Source: Octopus sinensis (Eukaryota). Taken from it: a stretch of DNA of 11,080 nt. The notes beneath the pieces are model-generated. The model did no database searches and had not been told where the DNA came from. It saw only the letters and a list, made by a program, of their open reading frames with translations. The first letter of the stretch is position 1; the number at the start of each line of letters is the position of its first letter. Made by a program: the position numbers and the translations under genes. The stretch lies in the NCBI RefSeq assembly GCF_006345805.1, contig NW_021827220.1:1-11080 (forward strand), written 5' to 3'. Below, piece by piece: positions 2,305-11,080 of this stretch.

Positions 2305-2720
2305 TGAAGTTCGCTTCGTATCCGTGGGGTTACGGTTTTGTCATGCTGAGAGGCAACTTACGCAAGTGCCTTCTACGATTCTATGATAGGTTGTCTAATA
2401 TATATATATATATATATATATTTAATATATATATATGTAATGTTTGTATGAATGTATGTATTAATATATATAATATGTGTGTGTGTGTGTGTGTGTGTCT
2501 TTCTGGCTGTATGTTCTCCACCACCACCACAACATCAAGGCTTGACAACTAGTGTCCGTCTGTTTATGTCCCCGTAACTTAGCGATTCGGCAGAAAGGCC
2601 TATAGAATAGGTACTAAGCTTTAAAAAAATATACCCTGAGGTCGAATTGTTCGACAAAAACACTTCAAGGCTGTGCTCCAGCATGACCACAGTCAAATAA
2701 CTGAAACAAATAAAAGAATA
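2305..2720 (+). mobile_element. Diverged tRNA-derived SINE (octopus-type, family A) with internal TA/TG microsatellite
   Basis: The 5' part (GGCAACTTACGCAAGTGCCTTCTAC) resembles the copy at 5234-5483 (GGCAAGTTGGGCAAGTGTTTTTTAC). GTAACTTAGCGATTC at 2574-2588 is the exact reverse complement of 10902-10916. The tail GTGCTCCAGCATGACCACAGTCAAATAACTGAAACAAATAAAAG matches the reverse complement of about 10996-11039. The family call is from recalled octopus SINE sequence. Confidence 0.85.
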
Positions 2721-2739
2721 CTGTTTAATTAGTCAGACT

Positions 2740-2825
2740 GGTCTCTTCGTCTCGATTGTTGCTTTCGCTACGATTCAGCTATTGTACATTCCAGCCTTTT
2801 TCGGGTGTCTTGAGATGAATTCGGT
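2740..2825 (-). mobile_element. Decayed Penelope-type pseudo-LTR fragment with eroded hammerhead motif
   Basis: Minus strand reads CCGAAAA-A-GGCTG-GAATGTACAA-TAGCT-GAAT. Stem II still pairs (with G.U), but the CUGANGA and GAAA boxes are mutated. It resembles a recalled octopus repeat carrying CTGATGAAGGCTG...CAGCCGAAAC. Confidence 0.4.
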
Positions 2826-3293
2826 CGTTGTATCAGAATTTTGAATCTAACCCTTTATTTGATCCAAAGAGGTGAACTGTTCTCATTCTGCTCTCTGAGT
2901 TTCATAGCCTGTTTTGCTTCAGTTGATGTTTTGTGAATTCACCTTGGAATTCAACTCAGACCCTTGCTTGAGATTAAACACTGAACCTCCAGGTGACTGC
3001 ACTACATTAACCAACGTCTTTATCTACGACGCTATGCTACAAATTTTTACTGCATTAAATCATATAATATAGGCCCAGTGGCGCACATAGAAGCCGGGAT
3101 AATTTTCTTATTTTGAGGTTTTTGTGGGTGGAGAAATGTGTGTCTTATATTCTATCAAATGAATGATTATCTAGTTGTTCTAGGTTCGAGATCAGTTCTG
3201 TCTCTACTGGTGAGAAATTAGAAAAATAAGCCAAAATGCATTGCGTAGTATACACACACTACGTAATATTCCCCCAAGGAATTGCATGCAAGT

Positions 3294-3543
3294 GGGGACA
3301 CATGATTTAGTGGTTAGGGTATAGGACTCATAATCATAAGATTGTGGTTTCCTGGAACGGCGGTACCTTGCGTTCTTGAGCAAAACCCCTTCATTTTGCG
3401 CTGCTTCTGTCCACTCAGCTGACAAAAATAAGGTTTCTTACGATGGACTGGTATACTGCCAGTGGAGAGTATATACACGCCAGAGAATCCTGGAAACCGG
3501 CCCTATGAGTTTATATGACTCGGGATGGAGCTTTATACTTTAA
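3294..3543 (+). mobile_element. tRNA-derived SINE (family B), diverged
   Basis: Pol III A-box-like TGATTTAGTGG at 3303-3313 in a tRNA-like head with a damaged B box. It is followed by TTCTTGAGCAAAAC...GTCCACTCAGCTG (central-domain-like) and a GGAAACCGGCCCTATGAG...CTTTATACTTT tail, as recalled for cephalopod SINEs. Confidence 0.7.
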
Positions 3544-3548
3544 ATGTG

Positions 3549-4010
3549 TTACATGCACACATTGCATAATGCAGACATTACATAGTACAAGTTGCATGAC
3601 ATTTCACAAAAAGCATACTGCATAATACACACACAACACACATTGCATAAAACAGACATTACATAGTACAAGTTGCATGACATTTCACATAAAGCATACT
3701 GCATAATACACACATAACACACATTGCATAGTACATGCTGAAAAACGCGCATTGCATAATATACGTTGCATAACCCACATTACATATCATATTCGCATTA
3801 CCTAACATACACACAATGCCAACACACTTGTTTCATAACATGTACATATTGCGTGATTTGTACACAGGGCATAATATACATACATTGCATAACACACTTT
3901 GCATAACAGACATTGTACAACACACAGTGTGGATAACGTACATACGTTATATAACATGCACACATTGCATAATTTACACATTCTATGCATACAGTACACG
4001 ATATGAAGTC
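3549..4010. repeat. Degenerate ~20-bp minisatellite (ACACATTGCATAA core) containing an 81-bp higher-order tandem duplication
   Basis: CACACATTGCATA occurs at 3556, 3637 and 3718 (period 81). CAGACATTACATAGTACAAGTTGCATGACATTTCACA occurs at 3572 and 3653. TTGCATAA-like cores recur to about 3972. Confidence 0.9.
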
Positions 4011-4344
4011 ATACAAACTTTGAGTAGCGACTACATATTCATTGAATTTGTACTAAATACCATCTCTAAACTATCAGTCTTGTTAAATAATTAATTATTC
4101 TTCTAATTACATTTATTTAAGAAAGCTTTCATGCAGAAGTTTTAAAGATATTTGTCTGAAATCTGAATGAAGCCTGGGCTGGGCATAACAACATCAACAA
4201 CATCAGGGAAGAACGGAAAGAAAACATCGAAAATAGTAAACAGAATCGTATTAATTATAGTTATAGAAGAAAATTGAATTATGAAGTACATTTTTCTTGG
4301 AGATATGAACTTAATAATGACTTATGTAATTGCTATATAATGGA

Positions 4345-4371
4345 AATAACAACAACAACAGCAACAACAAC

Positions 4372-4410
<39 letters not shown>
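4345..4410. repeat. Compound (AAC)n(AAT)n microsatellite
   Basis: Direct reading; it produces the poly-Leu run of ORF 4311..4580(-). Confidence 0.95.
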
Positions 4411-4411
<1 letters not shown>

Positions 4412-4815
4412 TGATCGCTCTATTGACTTCTGAATAGACTAAAATTACACTTGGATGAAGTTCACCCACAGCTAAATTATTTTCAAGAAAACAATTACAG
4501 CTGCAAACTTGATTTGTTGAACGTAAAAGGAAAAGAAATGCGTTGATTGTAAATTTGTTTTCGGAAAGTAGAGATTGCACAAATAATTCTTAAATGAAGA
4601 TATTCTCAGAAGTTCACAATCAGCTATAACACGAAATGTAGCAACTGCAATGCTATACTGTCGTTATTAGGTAATCTCACGATAAGCTTGACCATTCACC
4701 TGTGTGTGTGCGTATATATATATATTTCACTTAGGTATTACGATATTAATAACCTGATGTAGAACTCAGTATACATATGGTTCAGAACGAAACGGTAGTT
4801 GGGTACAGACCGGTA

Positions 4816-4948
4816 ATAAGAAATTGAGATGACAAAGGAATAAGCGATTGTCTTCTGAACTCCATTAGCTTACAGCCGTTTCTGCTATAAGATGCAGTGG
4901 GCTCGTGTTTGAATGCCTGAGTATCACCTTGTCATCTCAATTTCTTAT
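4816..4948. mobile_element. Small inverted-repeat (MITE-like/foldback) element
   Basis: ATAAGAAATTGAGATGACAA (4816-4835) is the perfect reverse complement of TTGTCATCTCAATTTCTTAT (4929-4948), with a 93-nt spacer. TA dinucleotides at the outer ends are compatible with a TA target-site duplication. Confidence 0.6.
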
Positions 4949-4953
4949 ATATA

Positions 4954-5019
<66 letters not shown>
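4946..5019. repeat. (TA)n microsatellite
   Basis: Near-perfect TA run with one phase slip. Confidence 0.95.
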
Positions 5020-5023
<4 letters not shown>

Positions 5024-5137
5024 ATATTTCGGAATGGTCATTTTGCCAGTTTAGCCAATAAAAACACACGCACTATATATTTGGTGTTACTTTGCTTTAG
5101 TGTTATTTATTTTTTACATTAATCTTAATCTTATTTC

Positions 5138-5182
5138 GGCCAGAGTTCTTTCGTCACATTCCTGTGACCGCATCAGTGGTCC
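5138..5182 (-). ncRNA. Minimal type I hammerhead ribozyme-like motif, variant core
   Basis: Minus strand: GGACCA-CTGATGCG-GTCACA-GGAA-TGTGAC-GAAA-GAAC-TC-TGGCC. Stem I is GG(A)CCA/TGGCC, stem II is 6 bp with a GGAA loop, the GAAA box is intact and the cleavage triplet is CUC. A9 is replaced by C plus an extra G. Confidence 0.6.
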
Positions 5183-5233
5183 TTTGTTTTCTTCTTTCTT
5201 ATTTGTGTCTCTCCTTACTAACCGTCAGCCAAA

Positions 5234-5483
5234 GCGTAGGAGTGGCTGTGTGGTATGTAGCTTGCTTACGAACCACATGGTTCCCAGTACAGTCCCACTG
5301 CGTGGCAAGTTGGGCAAGTGTTTTTTACTATAGCTTCGGGCCGACCAAAGCCTTGTGACCTGATTTGGTAGACGGAAACTGAAAGAAACCTGTCGTATAT
5401 ATGTAAATATATATATATGTATGTGTGTGTATATGTTTGTGTGTCTGTGTTTGTCCACCACCACCGCCAACCTCGAACCGATG
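5234..5483 (+). mobile_element. tRNA-derived SINE (family A), 5' half with internal microsatellite, 3'-truncated
   Basis: A-box-like TGGCTGTGTGG and a damaged B-box region (GGTTCCCAGTACAGTCCC), then GGGCAAGTG...GGCCGACCAAAGCCTTGTG...GGTAGACGGAAACTGAAAGAA and a (TA/TG)n tract. TGTCTGTGTTTGTCC matches the reverse complement of 10973-10987. It closely resembles the abundant octopus tRNA-SINE as recalled. Confidence 0.9.
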
Positions 5484-5640
5484 AAAGGCACACTAGTTGA
5501 TTTCGATGGGGTTTGAACTTAGAAACATAAAGTACCAGTTACCAGTCAAGTGCTGCAGTCGATAGTCTTGGCTGACTTCACTTCTACCGTTCTTTCTTTC
5601 ACGCGTTGTACCTAAATCCGAAACTGTCGTTATTGTTATT
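5472..5640. mobile_element. SINE family C fragment with internally inverted B-box segment (copy 1)
   Basis: 5487-5528 is the reverse-complement homologue of 9316-9353, yet it is followed by AAGTACC in the + orientation as at 9373-9379. It shares four colinear blocks with 5761-5940. Confidence 0.6.
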
Positions 5641-5676
5641 GCTTTTGTTTCTATTGGCTGATTTAATATCATTATT

Positions 5677-5969
5677 GGCGAGCGAGCTGCTAGAAGTTTG
5701 GTGCGTCGAAAAAGAAATGCTTTGCGCTGGTATTTCTATTGGTTCTTCACTGTATTCGAGCTCAAAAGAATGAAAGCTCTCTAGACCTCACCGGGATTTG
5801 AACTAAGAACGTGAAGTTGTAGCAGCCAAGTGCTGGAGTCGATTGCATCGACTGCCACAACACACCACCGCCATCACCGCCTCCGCCTCTTATTTCAGAA
5901 TTTCTGTCCTTATGCCTAAATCCAAAACTGTTATTATTACTTTTTGTTGTTGTTGTTGTTGTCGTTGTT
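5677..5969 (+). mobile_element. SINE family C copy with internally inverted B-box segment (copy 2), ending in a (TTA/GTT)n tail
   Basis: Head GGCGAGCGAGCTGCTAGAA...GAAATGCTT...GGTATTTC, an inverted segment GACCTCACCGGGATTTGAACTAAGAACGT, and a 3' part GTGCTGGAGTCGATTGCATCGACT...CCTTATGCCTAAA followed by a simple-repeat tail. Confidence 0.65.
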
Positions 5970-7223
5970 CTAATTATATTCTTGACAAAGAACCATGCGT
6001 TTCGGTTTGATTCTTCAGTTCAGGTTTGATTTTTTTTTCACTTCTTAAATTGCCCAGGGAATTATTTTACTAGGTTTTTTTTTTCTTTTTTGGGTATGTG
6101 TTTTTGTTTATTTCTTTGTTGTGTTTGTTTTCCATCCTTCCGGTTTCAAATTAAAATGGATTAATCACAAACAAGAGTCCACTCAATGGAGTACAAAATT
6201 CCTCCCCCTTTTTTCCCATCAAAATAAGTCTTTGAAGAATGCATTAGATATGACGGGGAAGAATTGACGGTGGTGAGGAAGGGTCTACGCCGACCAACAA
6301 CAACAAAATCCTCCATTCTTCTACAGCTGATACAAGCATTATATTTGCTCTCAATGCTTCTTCTTCTTCTTCTTGTAGCTGATGTTGTCATTACTGTTGA
6401 TCTAGTTGTTGCTGGTGCTGGGGAAAAACACAGCAGTTCTGATTACTCAACAAAAATCCAATTCATGGACCTTATAGAATTTTCTTATTTTCAGCACGTA
6501 GTTTTCCTATTTTTGAGGAAATATTTAAATTTTATCATTGAACACCGTAAAAATAACAGCAAAAATTTTCAGCCATTTTGCTTGGAAACCAATCAAATCC
6601 TATATTGTTTAGATGATAAAATATAAATTGGCGTTTTTTTCAAGTTTTGCTTCTCTTTTTTTTTTAATTAATATGCATTTATTTTAAAATTATTATTGGT
6701 TAAATGGGACATGAAAATTTGCCGTTGGTAATTATCAGCAGGTCTTAGCAATTCTTTGTCGATATTTTTTTAAAACTTTACACATAAAAAGAATACATTG
6801 AAATCATTGGACAAACCTCACTTGTGTGTGTATAGTGTCTGCATATTATATATACATACATACATGCACGTACGCATATGCGCACAGACAAACACACACA
6901 TACACACGCACACACTCGTATATATGTAACGTGCATGGAAGTGTACCTGAGTGCATATATGTGTTAGTAACACTGTAACATTTTTCATTCCCAAACTGGC
7001 GTAGTACCTGCAAAAAATAACGGGGTTTATTTCTGTCATTTACCTTCATATGTGTGTGTGTGTGTGGTGTGTGTGTATGTTCATGTTTGTTTTTATGTTT
7101 AGTTATAATAACTATTTAACATTAATCTAACAGGTTACTCTATACTTTTGTAGAGTACAAATTTATTTTTCTAAAAGAAGAATTTTTTTAAAAGTGACTT
7201 CGAAGTTAAACCAATGTCCATTT

Positions 7224-7268
7224 GCAGTCTGACGATGGCTTAATTAGCCAGAATACGGTGTTTATTGC
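7224..7268 (+). ncRNA. Minimal type I hammerhead ribozyme-like motif, degenerate stem III
   Basis: GCAGT-CTGACGA-TGGCT-TAATT-AGCCA-GAA-TACGGTGTTT-ATTGC. The CUGANGA box is perfect, stem II has 5 bp and stem I has 5 bp (one G.U). GAAT replaces GAAA. Confidence 0.55.
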
Positions 7269-7488
7269 TGATATTTTTCAGTAATTTTGTCACATCTCTG
7301 TAGGGTCACAATGAAAACAACTACATGTATTGATTTTATTTCACTTTATTATAATTATTTATTATTTTTTTGTCATGACTTGGAGTAGAAGCAACATGTC
7401 ATTGACAAATACTTAATGGTGGCGGAAGCACTTTGACAAACGTAACTGATTGGTAGATTGATTGACCGAACAATTAATCAAACAATTG

Positions 7489-7526
7489 ATTAGTTAATTG
7501 GTTAAATGGCTAACCAATTGACTAAT
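7489..7526 (+). other. 16-bp hairpin / inverted repeat with 6-nt loop
   Basis: ATTAGTTAATTGGTTA-AATGGC-TAACCAATTGACTAAT gives 15 Watson-Crick pairs plus one U.G on the + strand. Confidence 0.8.
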
Positions 7527-8082
7527 AAAAAGGTAAAGAAATGAAATAGCACCAATGTGTACGCTTATTATTGGCACAATGACCCTCCGGAGATACAACA
7601 ACAACAACATATATTTCAGCACACGAACGAGTACACATTTAGTATCTCACAAACCAATTACAAAAACGAAACTTTCAGTGATTCTTAATGATTTTTATTT
7701 GAAGCCTATTTGCTCTATTTTCTTCTGGTATTTTGTATTGTCTTCCTTCAGTTATTATTATTCCTCTCACCTTTTTCCATTCACTGTACTTCATTATTTT
7801 CATTGACTCGGTCACATATTTCATTATTTCTTTTCGTAAGGTCAGTGGATTGGGAAATTCCTTAGTGTGTCGGGAAAAATATTTTGTGGTACTTATCCTT
7901 GCTCTTTACGTGCTGTATACATATCCTGTCAAAGTCATTTGTTGTCTTCTCGAATATTGGTACTCGGCACCGACTAACCTCTCTCCTCAGAATTATATAT
8001 ATATATCTCTCTCCCTCCCTCTCTCTCATTCTGTGATATATATGTAACGGGCAAAGTTTACCTATTTCTCCGCAGACAGAAA

Positions 8083-8152
8083 AAAATGATGAACAACCTT
8101 AATCGATTTTCGAACCTTATTGGGTTCTCATCAGAAGCGTCCACATCATTCT
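8083..8152 (-). ncRNA. Type I hammerhead ribozyme with canonical core and palindromic minimal stem III (Penelope/retrozyme type)
   Basis: Minus strand: AGAATGATGTGGACGCTT-CTGATGA-GAACC-CAATAA-GGTTC-GAA-AATCGATT-A^AGGTTGTTCATCATTTT. All core nucleotides are present, G10.1-C11.1 closes stem II, stem III is the palindrome AATCGATT, and the triplet is UUA. Distal stem I is AATGATG/CATCATT. Confidence 0.8.
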
Positions 8153-8369
8153 GACAGTCTCCAGAAAAACAAGCAGCCTAACTGCTTATATACTTAACAA
8201 ATGCAGCAGTTACTCTATGAAGGAGTCCCTAATTTGCACACCGAAAGTGTTTAACACTCTATAAATACCAGCGGCCTGTTAACGGGGATCTCAGTCCACA
8301 CAGTAACAAAGTATGATGTAATAAATATGCAACATGTACGTTTACATATGCGTTATGTGTATATATAAA

Positions 8370-8690
8370 CTTCCTTCGTCTTTTTATCTCTACCAAAATC
8401 TACCTCCACATCTCTTCACTTCTCAACGTCTTTCTATCCCCTCTCTGTTTAACTCTTCCATTCTTGTCTTATTCATTCACTCACTCTACCTCATCACCCC
8501 TCTAATTCCCCCTCTGTATTATAGAACTTTAACTTCTTTCCACCTCTCCTCTATTACTCACGTTATTCCTTCTTTCGTTACTCGTTCTCCTCCCTTTCAC
8601 ACTATTTCTCTTTCGCTCGCCTTATTGTAGGCTGACTACTATCTCTTGTGCCCTCTTTCTTTCTCCATTACACTCTATCATTTACATATT
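8370..8690 (+). repeat. Pyrimidine-rich (CT-rich) low-complexity tract
   Basis: Strong C/T bias with very few G on the + strand; probably a decayed (CT)n/(CTTT)n repeat. Confidence 0.6.
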
Positions 8691-8747
8691 TATCTATGTG
8701 TGTGTGTGTGTGTTATGTTGTTTTGTCTGAGTGTGTGTCTTTTGTAG

Positions 8748-8845
8748 ATGATTACCTTCTCCGTGCGTAATGGCGCCATATATTTTGATACCCGTCCTGT
8801 AAAGCGTATATGTGGGTGTATGTTGGCAACACCGATAGGTGGCGT
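8748..8845 (+). other. Candidate 98-nt exon (coding status unknown)
   Basis: Acceptor-like GTCTTTTGTAG| before 8748 and donor-like |GTGAGT at 8846-8851 flank a GC/CpG-richer unique block. One frame is open (MITFSVRNGAIYFDTRPVKRICGCMLATPIGG), with no homology that I recognise. Confidence 0.22.
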
Positions 8846-8940
8846 GTGAGTAGCAGGTGCTCTGATGTTGTTGATAGTGGTAATGGTGAAAGTGTGTGTC
8901 AGCATAAATGAATGCTACGTTTTGGCTGTCGAGTATCTGC

Positions 8941-8976
<36 letters not shown>
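8941..8976. repeat. (TAG)12 microsatellite
   Basis: Twelve perfect TAG units. Confidence 0.97.
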
Positions 8977-9107
8977 AAATATGTTTCATGCAGTATTTTC
9001 CTAGAACTTCCGCCACAACACTACTTAAAATGATTATACACTGCGAAGATGGATCCATTGTGCTATAAGACACCGCCAATACCACCACTCTATCAATCTT
9101 CTTACCT

Positions 9108-9109
<2 letters not shown>

Positions 9110-9176
<67 letters not shown>
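9110..9176. repeat. (CA)n(TA)n compound microsatellite
   Basis: Direct reading. Confidence 0.97.
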
Positions 9177-9239
9177 ATCTTTCTTTTTCTCTGTTTCACC
9201 TTTCTCAGTAAAGCCACTACTTTTCCCTTCGCGCGTGTA

Positions 9240-9395
9240 AAGGCGTTAGAGACAACCCGGCGCAGTTGCTAAAGCAACGGACAGAAAGTCATACGCTATT
9301 TTGTTCTGACACTATACGTTCTGAGTTCAATTCCCATCGAGGTCAAATTTGCCCACCACTACTTTACACTTTAAGTACCTTTAGTGCACTTGATC
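9240..9395 (+). mobile_element. Diverged SINE family C copy (non-inverted)
   Basis: B-box GAGTTCAATTCCC (9323-9335) lies within ACGTTCTGAGTTCAATTCCCATCGAGGTCAAATTTGCC, followed by AAGTACC. Homologous segments occur at 5487-5528 and 5783-5812 in reverse orientation. Confidence 0.65.
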
Positions 9396-9711
9396 CTGTT
9401 GCAAGCGGCCCAGGTTTCCGAGTTGAGGACACCTTCCTCCTTCTCGCCAGTCTCAGAGGCCCTGTCACGAGTCATGAATACTGCCTTCACTTCTGACTAA
9501 AGAGAAAGAAACAAACTTAAAGAGAGGGCGCCGCTAACCAAATGAAAAAGCACACGTGGCTTAGCGTTTCAGATATTAATATTAGGTCATAGATGAGGGA
9601 CATTCTTCACAACCTTTTGTCAGCTGGCCTTCCTACTCTCCGGAATGGCGATCCTGAGACAGTAGTTGTCCTATCTGGGCATGGGCATAGACAGAGGAGA
9701 GAATCGTTCTT

Positions 9712-9970
9712 TTAAACAAAGCACCGTGTCAGACCTACCACTCAAAAGAAGTTAAATAAACTGGTGCATTATTGCGGTTAAAACAACAAGTGTTCAGTTG
9801 AGGCTACACAAACACATGGGGGTTAAAGCACCTCTTTAAACCTACTACTCAAAGAAGTTAAATATAACGGTGTGTTTGTTGTTTGGGATAAAAACTGCAA
9901 GTGTCTGATTGAGGCTACACTAAATCAAAGTGTTAAACAAAGCGCAGTGTTACACCAACCACTCAAAAAA
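9712..9970. repeat. Diverged ~110-bp tandem repeat, ~2.3 copies
   Basis: CCTAC(C/T)ACTCAAA(A)GAAGTTAAATA at 9734 and 9841, with a partial third copy at 9955. TTGAGGCTACAC at 9798 and 9909; CAAGTGT at 9787 and 9898; TTAAACAAAGC at 9712 and 9933. Confidence 0.85.
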
Positions 9971-9995
9971 ATATTCAAAATTCTAAAAAAAAAAT

Positions 9996-10026
<31 letters not shown>

Positions 10027-10363
10027 CAGAAGCTATTAGTTAAAATTTAATGCTAGAATATAACCGAGCTAAGTAATGTTACAGAATAGTAGATAGTACA
10101 TTTGCTGTGAAATTATTTCAGACATTTTGGTTTTTTTAGACATTCCAGAGAGAGAAATAAAAAGAAGAAATAAAAACGAAATTGTCCATTCTACAACTGC
10201 ATTAGTCAAACATTTTAATTTTAGTGCATCAAAAAACGAATTTATTCGAATTTATGCTTTTTTCTTTTCTTTTCTTTTCTTTATTTAAAAAAATTTTTTT
10301 TTTGTTATCGAAAGCAATCTTTGCACTCAGAAAGCTGCAAAACAAGAATAATTTCACGTCCTT

Positions 10364-10548
10364 CACCACCACCGCCGCCGCCGCAACTACCCACGATGAC
10401 AGCCACCTCCCCGCTGTCACCATCACTATCATCATTCATCACCGCGCCACAAGCTACCTTTATGACTTCCGCTACAGTCACCATCGTCACCACCGTCACC
10501 ACCACCATCACCGTCACCGCCATCACCACCACCACCATTGCCACCAGC
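10364..10548. repeat. Degenerate (CAC/CAT/CGC)n trinucleotide low-complexity repeat
   Basis: CAC-rich triplets give poly-His, poly-Thr, poly-Pro and poly-Val ORFs in several frames. Confidence 0.85.
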
Positions 10549-10861
10549 ACGGCTATTAGCCATTAACAGTTTCCCATTTTTTAATTGTCTACTTAATATT
10601 TTTTTCATTTTTTTTTATATTCTCAAATTCTCCCATAAAATTTTTCTATGAAATCTATGCCATTTCCATATCTCATTCTTTTGGGGATACAATTTTTTTT
10701 TCAAAAATTTATGCAAAAAATATATATATAACTATAAATTAAGTAATGCCATAGGGTTCCCCCACCTACTCAACAACTTCCCCACCGCCACCACTTATTC
10801 TAGGACATCAGGTTTTCATATTTTTTCAAGCTCTGCTATATTGATAGTCTTTTGTCTGACA

Positions 10862-10988
10862 GCTGTTTCTGTCATTGGACTGTAGACCGGTCTGTTTTGC
10901 GGAATCGCTAAGTTACTGGGAGGTAAACAAACCAACACCAATTGTTAAGCGGTGGGGTGGGGGGTGAGGGAAGGACAAACACAGACAT
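10862..10988 (-). mobile_element. Older SINE family A 3' half with internal deletion
   Basis: The reverse complement aligns with 2510-2600 (exact 15-mer GTAACTTAGCGATTC). It then jumps to the tail motif CAGTCCAATGACAGAAAC, skipping the segment seen at about 2605-2685. Confidence 0.75.
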
Positions 10989-10990
10989 GT

Positions 10991-11080
10991 ACTCTCTTTT
11001 ACTTGTTTCAGTCATTTGACTGCGGCCATGCTGGAGCACCAACTTTAGTCGAGCAAATCCACCCCAGGACTTATTCTTTG
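10991..11080 (-). mobile_element. SINE family A 3' tail, well preserved, running off the window edge
   Basis: The reverse complement CAAAGAATAAGTCCTGGGGTGGATTTGCTCGACTAAAGTTGGTGCTCCAGCATGGCCGCAGTCAAATGACTGAAACAAGTAAAAGAG aligns with 2622-2718. Confidence 0.9.

What the first reader, a model, noticed from the sequence alone, without database searches (positions are those of the whole stretch)
2740..10869. High density of mutually dissimilar hammerhead motifs: a ribozyme-bearing retroelement landscape without any RT gene
Seen within about 8 kb: one canonical motif (8083-8152), two near-canonical (5138-5182, 7224-7268), three decayed (2773-2804, 4754-4800, 8215-8259) and two half motifs (4871-4882, 10858-10869), on both strands. 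Their stems are unrelated in sequence while core boxes and pairing are kept. Two of the best copies lie within about 120 nt of TA-rich microsatellites. No RT or GIY-YIG endonuclease ORF is visible. Inference: these are several independent families of non-autonomous hammerhead-carrying retroelements (Penelope pseudo-LTR remnants or retrozyme-like) that may favour (TA)n sites. Such families could be poorly catalogued in cephalopods and might produce small cleaved or circular RNAs.
Basis: partly seen in the sequence, partly recalled or inferred. Interest (0 to 1): 0.75.

Follow-up and report, generated by a model that had tools for sequence, protein, structure and literature searches.

The report
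One real hammerhead in Penelope-type repeat
Only one of the eight claimed hammerhead ribozyme motifs is complete; it belongs to a short, very abundant, non-coding repeat that is likely copied by Penelope-like retrotransposons into microsatellites, a kind of element already known from other animals.

Summary
Of eight claimed hammerheads, one (8083-8152, minus strand) is complete: CUGAUGA, a 5-bp helix II, GAAA, a 2-bp helix III inside the palindrome AAUCGAUU, cleavage-site A, and helix I. It is a family feature of a ~305-nt non-coding repeat (window copy 8044-8340) with at least 1,718 candidate places in the 2.72-Gb genome. Copies are 5'-truncated or head-to-tail 1.x-mers, and their 3' ends abut (TA)n or (CA)n. 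This is the anatomy of a Penelope-dependent non-autonomous element (a non-LTR retrozyme).

Motif 5138-5182 lies in a second, young Penelope-type repeat, but core position 9 is C in 13 of 15 copies. The half motif 4871-4882 is the 3' half of a Penelope-type hammerhead, kept in a third repeat that has no CUGAUGA box.

The other five motifs are chance. They lie in single-copy DNA or rest on window-private substitutions, and a relaxed descriptor finds 30 sites against 30.25 in shuffles.

The window holds no RT or endonuclease remnant. Intact Penelope-like elements with hammerheads in their pseudo-LTRs exist elsewhere in the genome.

RNA-seq shows low, two-stranded coverage without cleavage-site ends or back-joints.

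Verdict: a new member of a known kind. The scan has reported the same kind in other genomes.

The parts
8044..8340 (-). Family 1: one copy (about 0.97 unit) of a ~305-nt non-coding, hammerhead-bearing, Penelope-type repeat. It lacks about 20 nt near its 3' end compared with other copies, and its 3' terminus GTTAC is followed by (AT)4.
   Evidence: Own-genome search: 1,718 first-look candidates, of which the 40 scored are 88-91% identical. Extent and alignment. Unit length from hammerhead spacing of 286-307 nt in 20 of 22 same-strand pairs. GC 0.40.
8083..8152 (-). Complete type-I hammerhead motif with an outer extension of helix I (8144-8150 pairs with 8085-8091).
   Evidence: Core boxes. Strict descriptor: 1 observed against 0.01 in shuffles. 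Helices I and III given the core arise by chance at 0.0116. Helices I and II appear in the MFE fold. Both boxes are kept in 27 of 54 family copies.
8128..8134 (-). CUGAUGA box (core positions 3-9).
   Evidence: sequence read.
8112..8127 (-). Helix II (GAACC/GGUUC, 5 bp, with G10.1-C11.1) and its loop CAAUAA.
8101..8111 (-). G12 A13 A14, then helix III: A15.1-U16.1 and A15.2-U16.2 capped by UCGA. The 8 nt AAUCGAUU are a perfect palindrome, predicted to form an intermolecular 8-bp helix III in a dimer.
   Evidence: Sequence. Descriptor result (2 bp, loop 4, H17 = A, helix I 4 bp). Palindrome duplex at -8.1 kcal/mol, and monomer hammerhead fold at -9.5 against an MFE of -18.6.
8099..8100 (-). Predicted cleavage site on the minus-strand RNA, after A17 (8100) and before position 1.1 (8099).
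   Evidence: Inferred from hammerhead numbering applied to the sequence. No pile-up of read ends was seen here.
5016..5231 (-). Family 2: a 5'-cut copy of a young Penelope-type repeat. Other copies run about 130 nt further upstream.
   Evidence: 186 first-look candidates, of which the 40 scored are 95-98% identical. Extent and adjacent inverted copies in L026-L028, L030 and L031. Alignment. Shared region.
5138..5182 (-). Hammerhead-like motif of family 2: CUGAUGC (C at position 9), one unpaired G, a 6-bp helix II with loop GGAA, GAAA, a non-palindromic helix III region, and a 5-bp closing helix.
   Evidence: CUGAUGC in 13 of 15 aligned copies, CUGAUGA in 0 of 15. Found at the one-mismatch descriptor level.
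4946..5015 (.). (TA)n microsatellite lying between the 3' end of family 2 and the inverted fragment of family 3.
4726..4930 (-). Family 3: a copy of an older, high-copy Penelope-type repeat. Its 3' end abuts (TA)n at 4713-4725.
   Evidence: 2,019 first-look candidates, of which the 40 scored are 79-85% identical, with 8 adjacent inverted partial matches among the rows. Extent. Alignment.
4871..4882 (-). Relic of a hammerhead 3' half. The window reads GAAACGGCUGUA. The family majority reads GAAACAGCUGUA, which is GAAA plus the palindrome ACAGCUGU plus A. No CUGAUGA box lies upstream.
   Evidence: The same 3' half follows a full CUGAUGA/long-helix-II motif in L067.
4922..4948 (+). Short inverted fragment of family 3 joined to the 5' end of the main copy. 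Its partner arm is 4816-4842.
   Evidence: Inverted repeat I1, 27 nt, 89% complementary. The same junction is seen in L076 and L080.
2720..3037 (.). Family 4: an older repeat that often has an adjacent inverted partial copy. It contains the claimed 'decayed' motif 2773-2804, which is not a hammerhead at family level.
   Evidence: 281 first-look candidates, of which the 40 scored are 76-82% identical, with 4 inverted neighbours among the rows. Alignment of 3 other copies.
7224..7268 (+). Chance resemblance: CUGACGA, a 5-bp hairpin, then GAAU.
   Evidence: Single-copy in the genome. No GAAA box.
10858..10869 (-). GAAACAGCUGUC in single-copy DNA. It is either chance or an unrecognisably old fragment.
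   Evidence: Single-copy. No CUGAUGA box upstream.

Best explanation
The stretch 8044-8340 (minus strand) is one copy of a ~305-nt non-coding repeat that carries a complete type-I hammerhead and is likely a non-autonomous passenger of Penelope-like retrotransposons (a 'non-LTR retrozyme').

Shown:
- The motif has every conserved core position, a 5-bp helix II, a 4-bp helix I with an outer extension, and a 2-bp helix III inside the palindrome AAUCGAUU.
- The motif is a feature of the whole family.
- The family has well over a thousand candidate places in the genome. Copies are 5'-truncated, or start at the unit boundary with a short tail, or are head-to-tail 1.x-mers with hammerheads about 305 nt apart.
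- 3' ends run into (TA)n or (CA)n.
- The same genome holds canonical Penelope-like elements (RT plus C-terminal GIY-YIG) with palindromic-helix-III hammerheads in their pseudo-LTRs, and their 3' ends run into (AT)n.

Inferred:
- Transcripts that span two units would pair their palindromes into a dimeric helix III and cut after A8100, releasing unit-length RNA.
- That RNA (linear, or circularised by a host ligase) would be reverse-transcribed in trans by a Penelope RT/endonuclease that primes on nicked microsatellite DNA.

The window copy has a single hammerhead and a 3' deletion, so it is most likely an inert product.

Families 2 (5016-5231) and 3 (4726-4930) are further Penelope-type passengers. 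Their hammerheads are, respectively, a C9 core variant and a 3'-half relic. The remaining five claimed motifs are chance.
For: Motif:
- Both boxes are intact only at 8083-8152.
- The strict descriptor finds 1 site against 0.01 expected.
- Given the core, helix III + H17 + helix I arise by chance in 2,320 of 200,000 flank draws, or 0.0116.
- The architecture matches the published description of metazoan type-I hammerheads: helix III of 1-2 bp with a small palindromic loop, active as dimers in tandem repeats (PMC4209133, passages read).

Family:
- 1,718 and 2,000 first-look candidates.
- 20 of 22 same-strand hammerhead spacings are 286-307 nt.
- Most of the 39 non-self matches to a natural 1.3-mer are full length, and 5 loci show a further overlapping match.
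- Insertion starts: 6 of 20 lie within 17 nt upstream of the unit boundary, and the rest are truncated or longer than one unit.
- One adjacent inverted partial copy was seen (L011).
- 14 of the 21 located 3' ends have (AC)n or (AT)n within 30 nt, against 71 of 760 background windows.
- GC is 0.40.
- None of the 38 family-1 loci runs on into coding sequence.

Partner pool:
- 5,029 GIY-YIG candidates.
- A 781-aa ORF with RVT_1 and GIY-YIG.
- In L065, a repeat 99.2% identical over 1,353 nt, each copy carrying CUGACGA...GAAAUCGGUCCGAUA, flanks the ORF.
- The PLE 3' end runs into (AT)n in 3 of 3 copies.

Literature: Penelope hallmarks are 5' truncation, partial tandems, inverted copies, a tail and a microsatellite bias (PMC8557442, passages read). 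Non-LTR retrozymes are 170-400-nt, low-GC tandem units with type-I hammerheads (PMC7229834, passages read) and have been proposed as Penelope derivatives (10.64898/2026.07.22.740005, abstract read).
Against: - Rfam's curated hammerhead models do not report the motif at gathering score or at E up to 10, either in the window or in a consensus-like tandem locus. The same models also miss the pseudo-LTR hammerhead of the L065 element, so this is weak evidence.
- The monomer hammerhead fold is far from the MFE (-9.5 against -18.6 kcal/mol), and the segment's fold z-score is only -1.49.
- RNA-seq gives 167-222 reads per run, none 99% or more alike, in both orientations. Depth tracks the genomic truncation profile, with no back-joints and no read ends at 8099/8100. 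Processing and circles are therefore not shown.
- Insertion 5' ends do not cluster at the cleavage site.
- I saw only 1.x- to about 2-mers, not the long arrays described for retrozymes.
- No sequence similarity links family 1 to the 36 Penelope loci sampled, so the partner is unidentified.
- 27 of 54 copies carry a change in a core box or in the palindrome, as expected from neutral decay. This says nothing for function.
Confidence: 0.78

Rival explanations
1. Family 1 is not a self-standing non-autonomous element. It would be the 5'-truncated 3' end, or the pseudo-LTR, of a long autonomous Penelope-like element, as earlier follow-ups in this scan often concluded for other genomes.
For: All Penelope hallmarks are present. 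Hammerheads sit in the pseudo-LTRs of autonomous elements in this genome. Only 36 Penelope loci, from a few lineages, were compared, whereas a published octopus repeat annotation lists 31 'Penelope-like' entries in one table (PMC13282606, passages read).
Against: - In the 38 family-1 loci, homology never extends past about one unit except into another unit of the same family.
- 6 of 20 copies start at the same unit boundary.
- Unit-to-unit junctions are constant, with spacing of 286-307 nt.
- There is no BLAST similarity to the Penelope loci apart from microsatellite.
Confidence: 0.12
2. The 8083-8152 motif is a chance match with no ribozyme function. The repeat would then be an ordinary SINE-like element copied by some other (LINE) machinery.
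For: No Rfam hit. A weak fold z-score. No RNA evidence of cleavage. Across a scan of many windows, a 1-in-100 event will recur.
Against: - The combined chance of the core (0.01) and helices I and III (0.0116) is about 1e-4 per window.
- The motif is the family's consensus state.
- It has the palindromic helix III typical of the class (PMC4209133).
- It sits in exactly the genomic context where such hammerheads are known: ~300-nt tandem units, partial tandems and microsatellite targets.
- Other Penelope-associated motifs in the same genome share the GAAA-palindrome-UH form.
Confidence: 0.06
3. The plus strand at 8081-8154 encodes a C/D-box snoRNA, with AUGAUGA at 8085-8091 and CUGA at 8150-8153.
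For: Weak cmscan matches to snoZ105, snoR29 and SNORD43 (13.7-17.4 bits, E 2.7-9), and again in L090.
Against: - The scores are far below the gathering thresholds of 45-50 bits.
- The stretch is a 5'-truncating, minus-strand-oriented repeat present in over a thousand candidate places.
- No read ends mark an RNA of that size.
- I did not test rRNA complementarity.
Confidence: 0.02

Closest known systems
Non-LTR retrozymes of animals (Cervera and de la Pena 2020, PMC7229834; Li, Clavereau and Pollet 2026 preprint, 10.64898/2026.07.22.740005)
   Same: Short (~305 nt) non-coding, low-GC (0.40) unit with one type-I hammerhead per unit, a head-to-tail arrangement, no LTR and no ORF, and a proposed dependence on Penelope-like elements.
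   Different: Only 1.x- to about 2-mers were seen here, not long arrays. Many copies are solo and 5'-truncated. No circular or cleaved RNA was detected in the RNA-seq laid. I found no cephalopod example in print: the search 'hammerhead ribozyme' + 'octopus' returned 5 papers, none on the subject; PMC7229834 has 0 occurrences of octopus or cephalopod; and PMC13282606 has 0 occurrences of hammerhead, ribozyme or retrozyme. I did not read the supplements of these papers, and they may list species.
Hammerheads in the pseudo-LTRs of Penelope-like elements (min-HHR and small-palindromic-helix-III forms; Cervera and de la Pena 2014, PMC4209133)
   Same: A type-I topology, a very short helix III embedded in a palindrome, predicted action as dimers, genome-wide solo copies, and association with Penelope insertion anatomy. 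The same genome shows such motifs flanking an RT/GIY-YIG ORF.
   Different: Family 1 has no coding body and no detectable sequence similarity to the sampled autonomous elements. Its helix II is 5 bp with no unpaired base, so it is closer to the 'canonical metazoan' form than to the min-HHR form, which has a 7-8 bp helix II.
Penelope-like element insertion anatomy (Craig et al. 2021, PMC8557442)
   Same: 5' truncation, partial tandems, adjacent inverted 5'-truncated copies, a short tail at one end, and insertion at (TA)n or (CA)n microsatellites.
   Different: That paper describes autonomous elements. The microsatellite bias is stated there for Naiad and Chlamys, which lack canonical hammerheads. 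Here the bias is seen for hammerhead-bearing short elements and for a C-terminal-EN element.

Membership tests
Hammerhead ribozyme, type I | Conserved core: C3 U4 G5 A6 N7 G8 A9 and G12 A13 A14 | tested here: met
   8128-8134 and 8109-8111 on the minus strand. This is the only one of the 8 claimed sites that meets it.
Hammerhead ribozyme, type I | Helix II directly abutting both boxes | tested here: met
   5 bp, GAACC/GGUUC, with G10.1-C11.1.
Hammerhead ribozyme, type I | Helix III with an A15.1-U16.1 pair, then H17 (not G), then helix I closing on the base before C3 | tested here: met
   2-bp helix III, loop UCGA, A17, helix I of 4 bp plus an outer 7 bp. Chance of this given the core: 0.0116.
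Hammerhead ribozyme, type I | Reaches the gathering score of a curated covariance model (Rfam hammerhead families) | tested here: not met
   No hammerhead match at gathering score or at E up to 10. The models also miss the pseudo-LTR hammerhead of L065, so their sensitivity for this subclass is low.
Hammerhead ribozyme, type I | Self-cleavage at the predicted site | not testable with these tools
   No read ends at 8099/8100 in three RNA-seq runs. These are fragmented libraries with multi-copy mapping, so this is not decisive.
Non-LTR retrozyme | Unit of about 170-400 nt with one type-I hammerhead, non-coding and low in GC | tested here: met
   Spacing of 286-307 nt. GC 0.40. No Pfam domain in the ORFs.
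Non-LTR retrozyme | Tandem genomic arrangement, from dimers to multimers | tested here: inconclusive
   Partial tandems are common and 5 loci show more than one overlapping match. No long array was seen among the 38 loci.
Non-LTR retrozyme | Expression as unit-length linear and circular RNA | tested here: inconclusive
   Family-level reads are present in both orientations, with no back-joints. The library type may exclude circles.
Autonomous Penelope-like element | ORF with RT and a GIY-YIG endonuclease | tested here: not met
   0 of the 32 ORFs of 70 aa or more that start at or after 3204 match RVT or GIY-YIG. tblastn with 5 PLE ORF products gives a best E of 1.2.
Penelope-type insertion (autonomous or passenger) | 5' truncation, partial tandem, adjacent inverted copy, tail, and microsatellite target | tested here: met
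   Family 1. Family 2. Family 3.
Hammerhead ribozyme (the family 2 motif, 5138-5182) | A at core position 9 | tested here: not met
   C in 13 of 15 copies and A in 0 of 15. The helix III region is not palindromic (read).
C/D-box snoRNA (plus strand, 8081-8154) | Reaches a curated model's gathering score; a discrete RNA | tested here: not met
   13.7-17.4 bits against thresholds of 45-50. No defined read ends.

The most novel reading that the evidence does not exclude
Family 2, at 95-98% identity between copies, spread recently while carrying a hammerhead-shaped motif with C in place of the normally invariant A9. Family 3 reached thousands of candidate places with only the 3' half of a hammerhead. 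Two readings follow. A C9 core may be a natural, active hammerhead variant that works in the dimeric Penelope context. Alternatively, the ribozyme may be dispensable for Penelope-type mobilisation, and what these passengers must keep is the GAAA-palindrome-UH half, for example as a dimerisation or RT-recognition signal. Family 1 could in addition be a live source of ~305-nt ribozyme-processed RNAs in this animal.
Probability: 0.15. Interest if true: 0.6.

Novelty: new member of a known kind. Interest (0 to 1): 0.3.

Why it matters
The finding shows that a large invertebrate genome, probably a cephalopod's (not verified here), holds abundant short passengers of Penelope-like elements. One family keeps a textbook dimer-type hammerhead. 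Repeat pipelines are likely to label such families as unclassified SINEs, although I did not test that. The side-by-side presence of an intact-hammerhead family, a core-variant family and a half-motif family, all with the same microsatellite-targeted insertion anatomy, offers a natural comparison for asking what the hammerhead contributes to Penelope-type retrotransposition. For the scan itself, the lesson is that single 'near-canonical', 'decayed' or 'half' motifs read by eye occur at chance frequency. They need checking against the family majority, genomic copy number and shuffled controls.

Tried and rejected
- Rfam scans: no hammerhead family was reported anywhere, not even for the pseudo-LTR motif of an intact Penelope element. 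I treat this as a sensitivity limit. The many mir-297, mir-466 and similar sub-threshold matches are artefacts of the (TGTA)n-like satellite at about 950-2290 and other low-complexity tracts.
- The look-up of sequencing runs: no RNA holder listed. The holders were small-share or of unknown type, and I did not use them.
- Similarity of families 1 and 2 to Penelope loci: the only matches were about 40-nt hits, which turned out to be (TA)n microsatellite. I rejected them as a link to a partner.
- Hammerhead core scan of the 30 GIY-YIG loci with 1.5-kb flanks: 4 weak hits, none convincing. The flanks were too short to reach the element ends. Six wider 10-kb loci did show the motifs.
- Clustering of insertion 5' ends at the predicted cleavage site: not seen.
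- The idea that 4754-4800 or 2773-2804 are decayed hammerheads: rejected, because the family majority is less hammerhead-like than the window copy.
- A search of earlier notes for this same genome returned nothing.
- Complex prediction, structure prediction and the protein-database searches were not used, because no protein is involved.

Full report
THE WINDOW

The window is the whole of contig C3691 (11,080 bases) of a 2.72-Gb assembly with 13,516 contigs. It has no flanks to explore. It is AT-rich (GC 0.35) and full of microsatellites.

CHECK OF THE OBSERVATION

I extracted the eight claimed sites on both strands. Only 8083-8152, read on the minus strand, contains both an intact CUGAUGA box and an intact GAAA box.

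Rfam reported no family at gathering score. It reported no hammerhead family even at E up to 10, either on the whole window or on 8030-8290 alone.

I then ran a descriptor search of my own against dinucleotide-preserving shuffles of 2740-10869:
- Strict form (CUGANGA, helix II of 4 bp or more abutting both boxes, GAAA): 1 site against a mean of 0.01.
- One core mismatch or fewer: 4 sites against 0.56.
- Two mismatches or fewer with 2-nt offsets, which is what is needed to capture the 'decayed' motifs: 30 sites against 30.25.

So the canonical site is far from chance, the near-canonical tier is mildly enriched, and the decayed tier is exactly what chance gives.

THE COMPLETE MOTIF

On the minus strand, the parts of the motif are:
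- CUGAUGA at 8134-8128.
- Helix II, GAACC/GGUUC, with loop CAAUAA, at 8127-8112.
- GAA at 8111-8109.
- A15.1 and A15.2 paired to U16.1 and U16.2 across the loop UCGA, at 8108-8101.
- A17 at 8100.
- Helix I: AGGU (8099-8096) pairs with GCUU (8138-8135). After an internal loop, a further 7 bp form between 8091-8085 and 8150-8144.

Given the core, flanks drawn from the same region satisfy 'helix III of 2 bp or more, H17, helix I of 4 bp or more' in 2,320 of 200,000 draws, or 0.0116.

The eight bases AAUCGAUU are a perfect palindrome. Folding predicts that the monomer does not favour the hammerhead fold (-9.5 kcal/mol with the helices enforced, against an MFE of -18.6). Two copies can form an 8-bp intermolecular helix III at -8.1 kcal/mol.

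This matches the published description of the usual metazoan type-I hammerhead: helix III of 1-2 bp capped by a small palindromic loop, inactive alone and active as a dimer in tandem repeats (PMC4209133, passages read; PMC7229834, passages read).

THE REPEAT THAT CARRIES IT (FAMILY 1)

A search of the own genome with 8040-8200 gave 1,718 first-look candidates. All 40 that were scored were 88-91% identical. Mapping and alignment of 19 loci showed the following:
- The element is oriented on the minus strand of the window.
- Its 3' end is constant and its 5' end is variable.
- The same ~23 nt are present at both ends of full copies.
- Several loci hold head-to-tail copies.

A natural 1.3-mer used as the query gave 2,000 candidates. 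Most of the 39 non-self matches were full length, and five loci showed a further overlapping match.

Across 38 loci, 20 of the 22 same-strand hammerhead-to-hammerhead distances are 286-307 nt. The other two, at 1,531 nt, are one segmental duplication. The unit is therefore about 305 nt.

Insertion starts fall into three groups:
- At the unit boundary, with 0-17 nt of 'tail': 6 of 20 in the first sample, counting the window.
- Truncated inside the unit.
- Longer than one unit.
None cluster at the predicted cleavage site.

Where the canonical terminus could be located (21 of 38 loci), 14 have an (AC)n or (AT)n run of at least four units in the next 30 nt, against 71 of 760 background windows.

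Of the 54 copies that cover the core, 27 keep both boxes and 27 carry at least one change in a box or in the palindrome. That is the pattern of neutral decay after insertion.

The window copy (8044-8340) lacks about 20 nt near its 3' end and has only one hammerhead.

THE OTHER CLAIMED SITES

5138-5182 lies in family 2 (window 5016-5231):
- It is a young repeat, with 186 candidates at 95-98% identity.
- It has frequent adjacent inverted copies, and its 3' end abuts the (TA)n at 4946-5015.
- Its motif has the shape of a Penelope min-HHR: a short closing helix, one unpaired base, a 6-bp helix II, then GAAA.
- Position 9 is C in 13 of 15 aligned copies and A in none. The helix III region is not palindromic.
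- It therefore fails the definition of a hammerhead at family level.

4754-4800 and 4871-4882 lie in family 3 (window 4726-4930):
- The family has 2,019 candidates at 79-85% identity, and adjacent inverted partial copies are common.
- It is oriented on the minus strand, with its 3' end at a (TA)n.
- The plus-strand 'decayed' motif rests on window-private changes. The majority reads CTGGTGT...GAAGC.
- The minus-strand 'half motif' is real at family level. The majority reads GAAACAGCUGUA, and the same 3' half follows a complete CUGAUGA/long-helix-II motif in L067. Family 3 itself has no CUGAUGA box.
- A 27-nt inverted fragment of the family is joined to the copy's 5' end.

The remaining sites:
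- 8215-8259 is antisense to family 1 and is not a hammerhead at family level.
- 2773-2804 lies in family 4, an older repeat with 281 candidates at 76-82% identity. Its three other aligned copies read GAAG and have no CUGAUGA box.
- 7224-7268 is single-copy.
- 10858-10869 is single-copy.

RT AND ENDONUCLEASE

None of the 32 ORFs of 70 aa or more that start at or after 3204 matches an RT or GIY-YIG family. tblastn with five PLE ORF products from this genome finds nothing in the window (best E = 1.2).

The genome itself is rich in Penelope-like elements:
- There are 5,029 GIY-YIG first-look candidates, 147 of the 150 scored match, and open frames reach 883 aa.
- At least two protein lineages, 47% identical to each other, are present.
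- In L065 the ORF is flanked by a repeat that is 99.2% identical over 1,353 nt. Each copy carries CUGACGA, a helix II and GAAAUCGGUCCGAUA, which again is a palindromic helix III.
- Other loci show GAAACUCGAGUC, GAAACAUAUGUC and GAAACAGCUGUA.
- The 3' end of this element runs into (AT)n in 3 of 3 copies.
- No sequence similarity links families 1 or 2 to the 36 sampled Penelope loci apart from microsatellite. The mobilising partner is not identified.

RNA

No RNA holder was listed for the stretch. Three raw RNA-seq runs with the same species label were laid on 7900-8500 at 85% likeness or more:
- 167-222 reads were laid per run, with about 6% of each run read.
- None was 99% alike or better, so the reads come from other family copies.
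- Reads lie in both orientations.
- Depth is highest over the hammerhead and falls towards the 5' end, as the genomic copy profile does.
- There are no joints, and no pile-up of read ends at 8099/8100.

This looks like passive read-through transcription. It neither shows nor excludes ribozyme processing.

MECHANISM

Shown: the motif, its family-level conservation, the tandem and truncated insertion anatomy, the microsatellite association, and the presence of apparently intact Penelope elements that have the same style of hammerhead and the same target type.

Inferred:
- Transcripts that span two units dimerise through the palindrome and cleave after A17.
- The unit-length RNA, linear or ligated into a circle, is copied by a Penelope RT primed at endonuclease-nicked (TA)n or (CA)n.
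- Template jumps or multimeric templates give the 1.x-mers, tails and inverted stubs.

The window copy is most likely an inert product.

COMPARISON AND NOVELTY

Family 1 fits the published class of animal non-LTR retrozymes and hammerhead-bearing Penelope derivatives in unit size, GC content, ribozyme type and arrangement. It differs in that no long arrays and no circular RNA were seen here.

I found no paper describing such elements in cephalopods:
- The search 'hammerhead ribozyme' + 'octopus' returned 5 papers, none on this subject.
- PMC7229834 does not mention octopus or cephalopods.
- A 2026 octopus repeat annotation lists Penelope-like elements but never mentions hammerheads, ribozymes or retrozymes (PMC13282606).
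- I did not read the supplements of these papers.

VERDICT

The finding holds one genuine hammerhead in a Penelope-type non-autonomous repeat, plus two related passengers with a variant or a relic motif. Five of the eight claims are chance. It is a new member of a known kind, of modest interest.

Noticed in passing
L084-L102 and L014 (family-1 loci); window 8134-8135: Among insertions longer than one unit, 11 of 17 upstream partial copies begin within about 30 nt of the CUGAUGA box (reference positions 203-234). That is more than an even spread would give. RNA-seq loose ends with two different flanks also sit at 8134/8135. This may be an RT stop at the structured ribozyme or a preferred template end. 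The sample was biased by the query used.
   Followed up: partly
window 8232-8239 and 8257-8269 (minus strand): The family-1 majority carries ATGCAAAT (GTGCAAAT in the window copy) about 25 nt downstream of a TATA-like GGTATTTATAGAG, upstream of the hammerhead. They resemble an octamer/TATA promoter pair, as I recall those motifs, and could be an internal promoter. I did not test this.
   Followed up: no
window 8081-8154 (plus strand): Weak C/D-box snoRNA-like matches (snoZ105, snoR29, SNORD43; 13.7-17.4 bits, E 2.7-9) lie on the strand opposite the hammerhead. They arise because the outer helix I arms read AUGAUGA...UCAUUCUGA.
   Followed up: yes
window about 950-2290: A long (TGTA)n-like satellite gives dozens of sub-threshold miRNA-family matches in Rfam (mir-297, mir-466, mir-3149 and others). 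These are low-complexity artefacts.
   Followed up: no
window 2540-2720, 3282-3536, 5234-5459, 10889-11080: Further dispersed SINE-like repeats recur in many of the fetched loci (BLAST rows). Some look tRNA-derived by eye. I did not analyse them.
   Followed up: no
L016/L017 (G000:C23, about 21.472-21.477 Mb): A tandem duplication with a 1,531-nt period contains a family-1 unit, a short upstream partial copy, (CA)n and a SINE fragment. This is a higher-order repeat, not a retrozyme array.
   Followed up: partly
L065 (G000:C1, about 207.47-207.48 Mb): A Penelope-like element has a 781-aa open RT/GIY-YIG frame, a second upstream 479-aa open frame, and flanking repeats 99.2% identical over 1,353 nt. 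The arrangement is a partial tandem with a period of about 5.9 kb. This is description only.
   Followed up: partly
window 6394-6426 (plus strand): The one-mismatch descriptor also hits here (CUGUUGA...GAAA, with a helix rich in G-U pairs).
   Followed up: no
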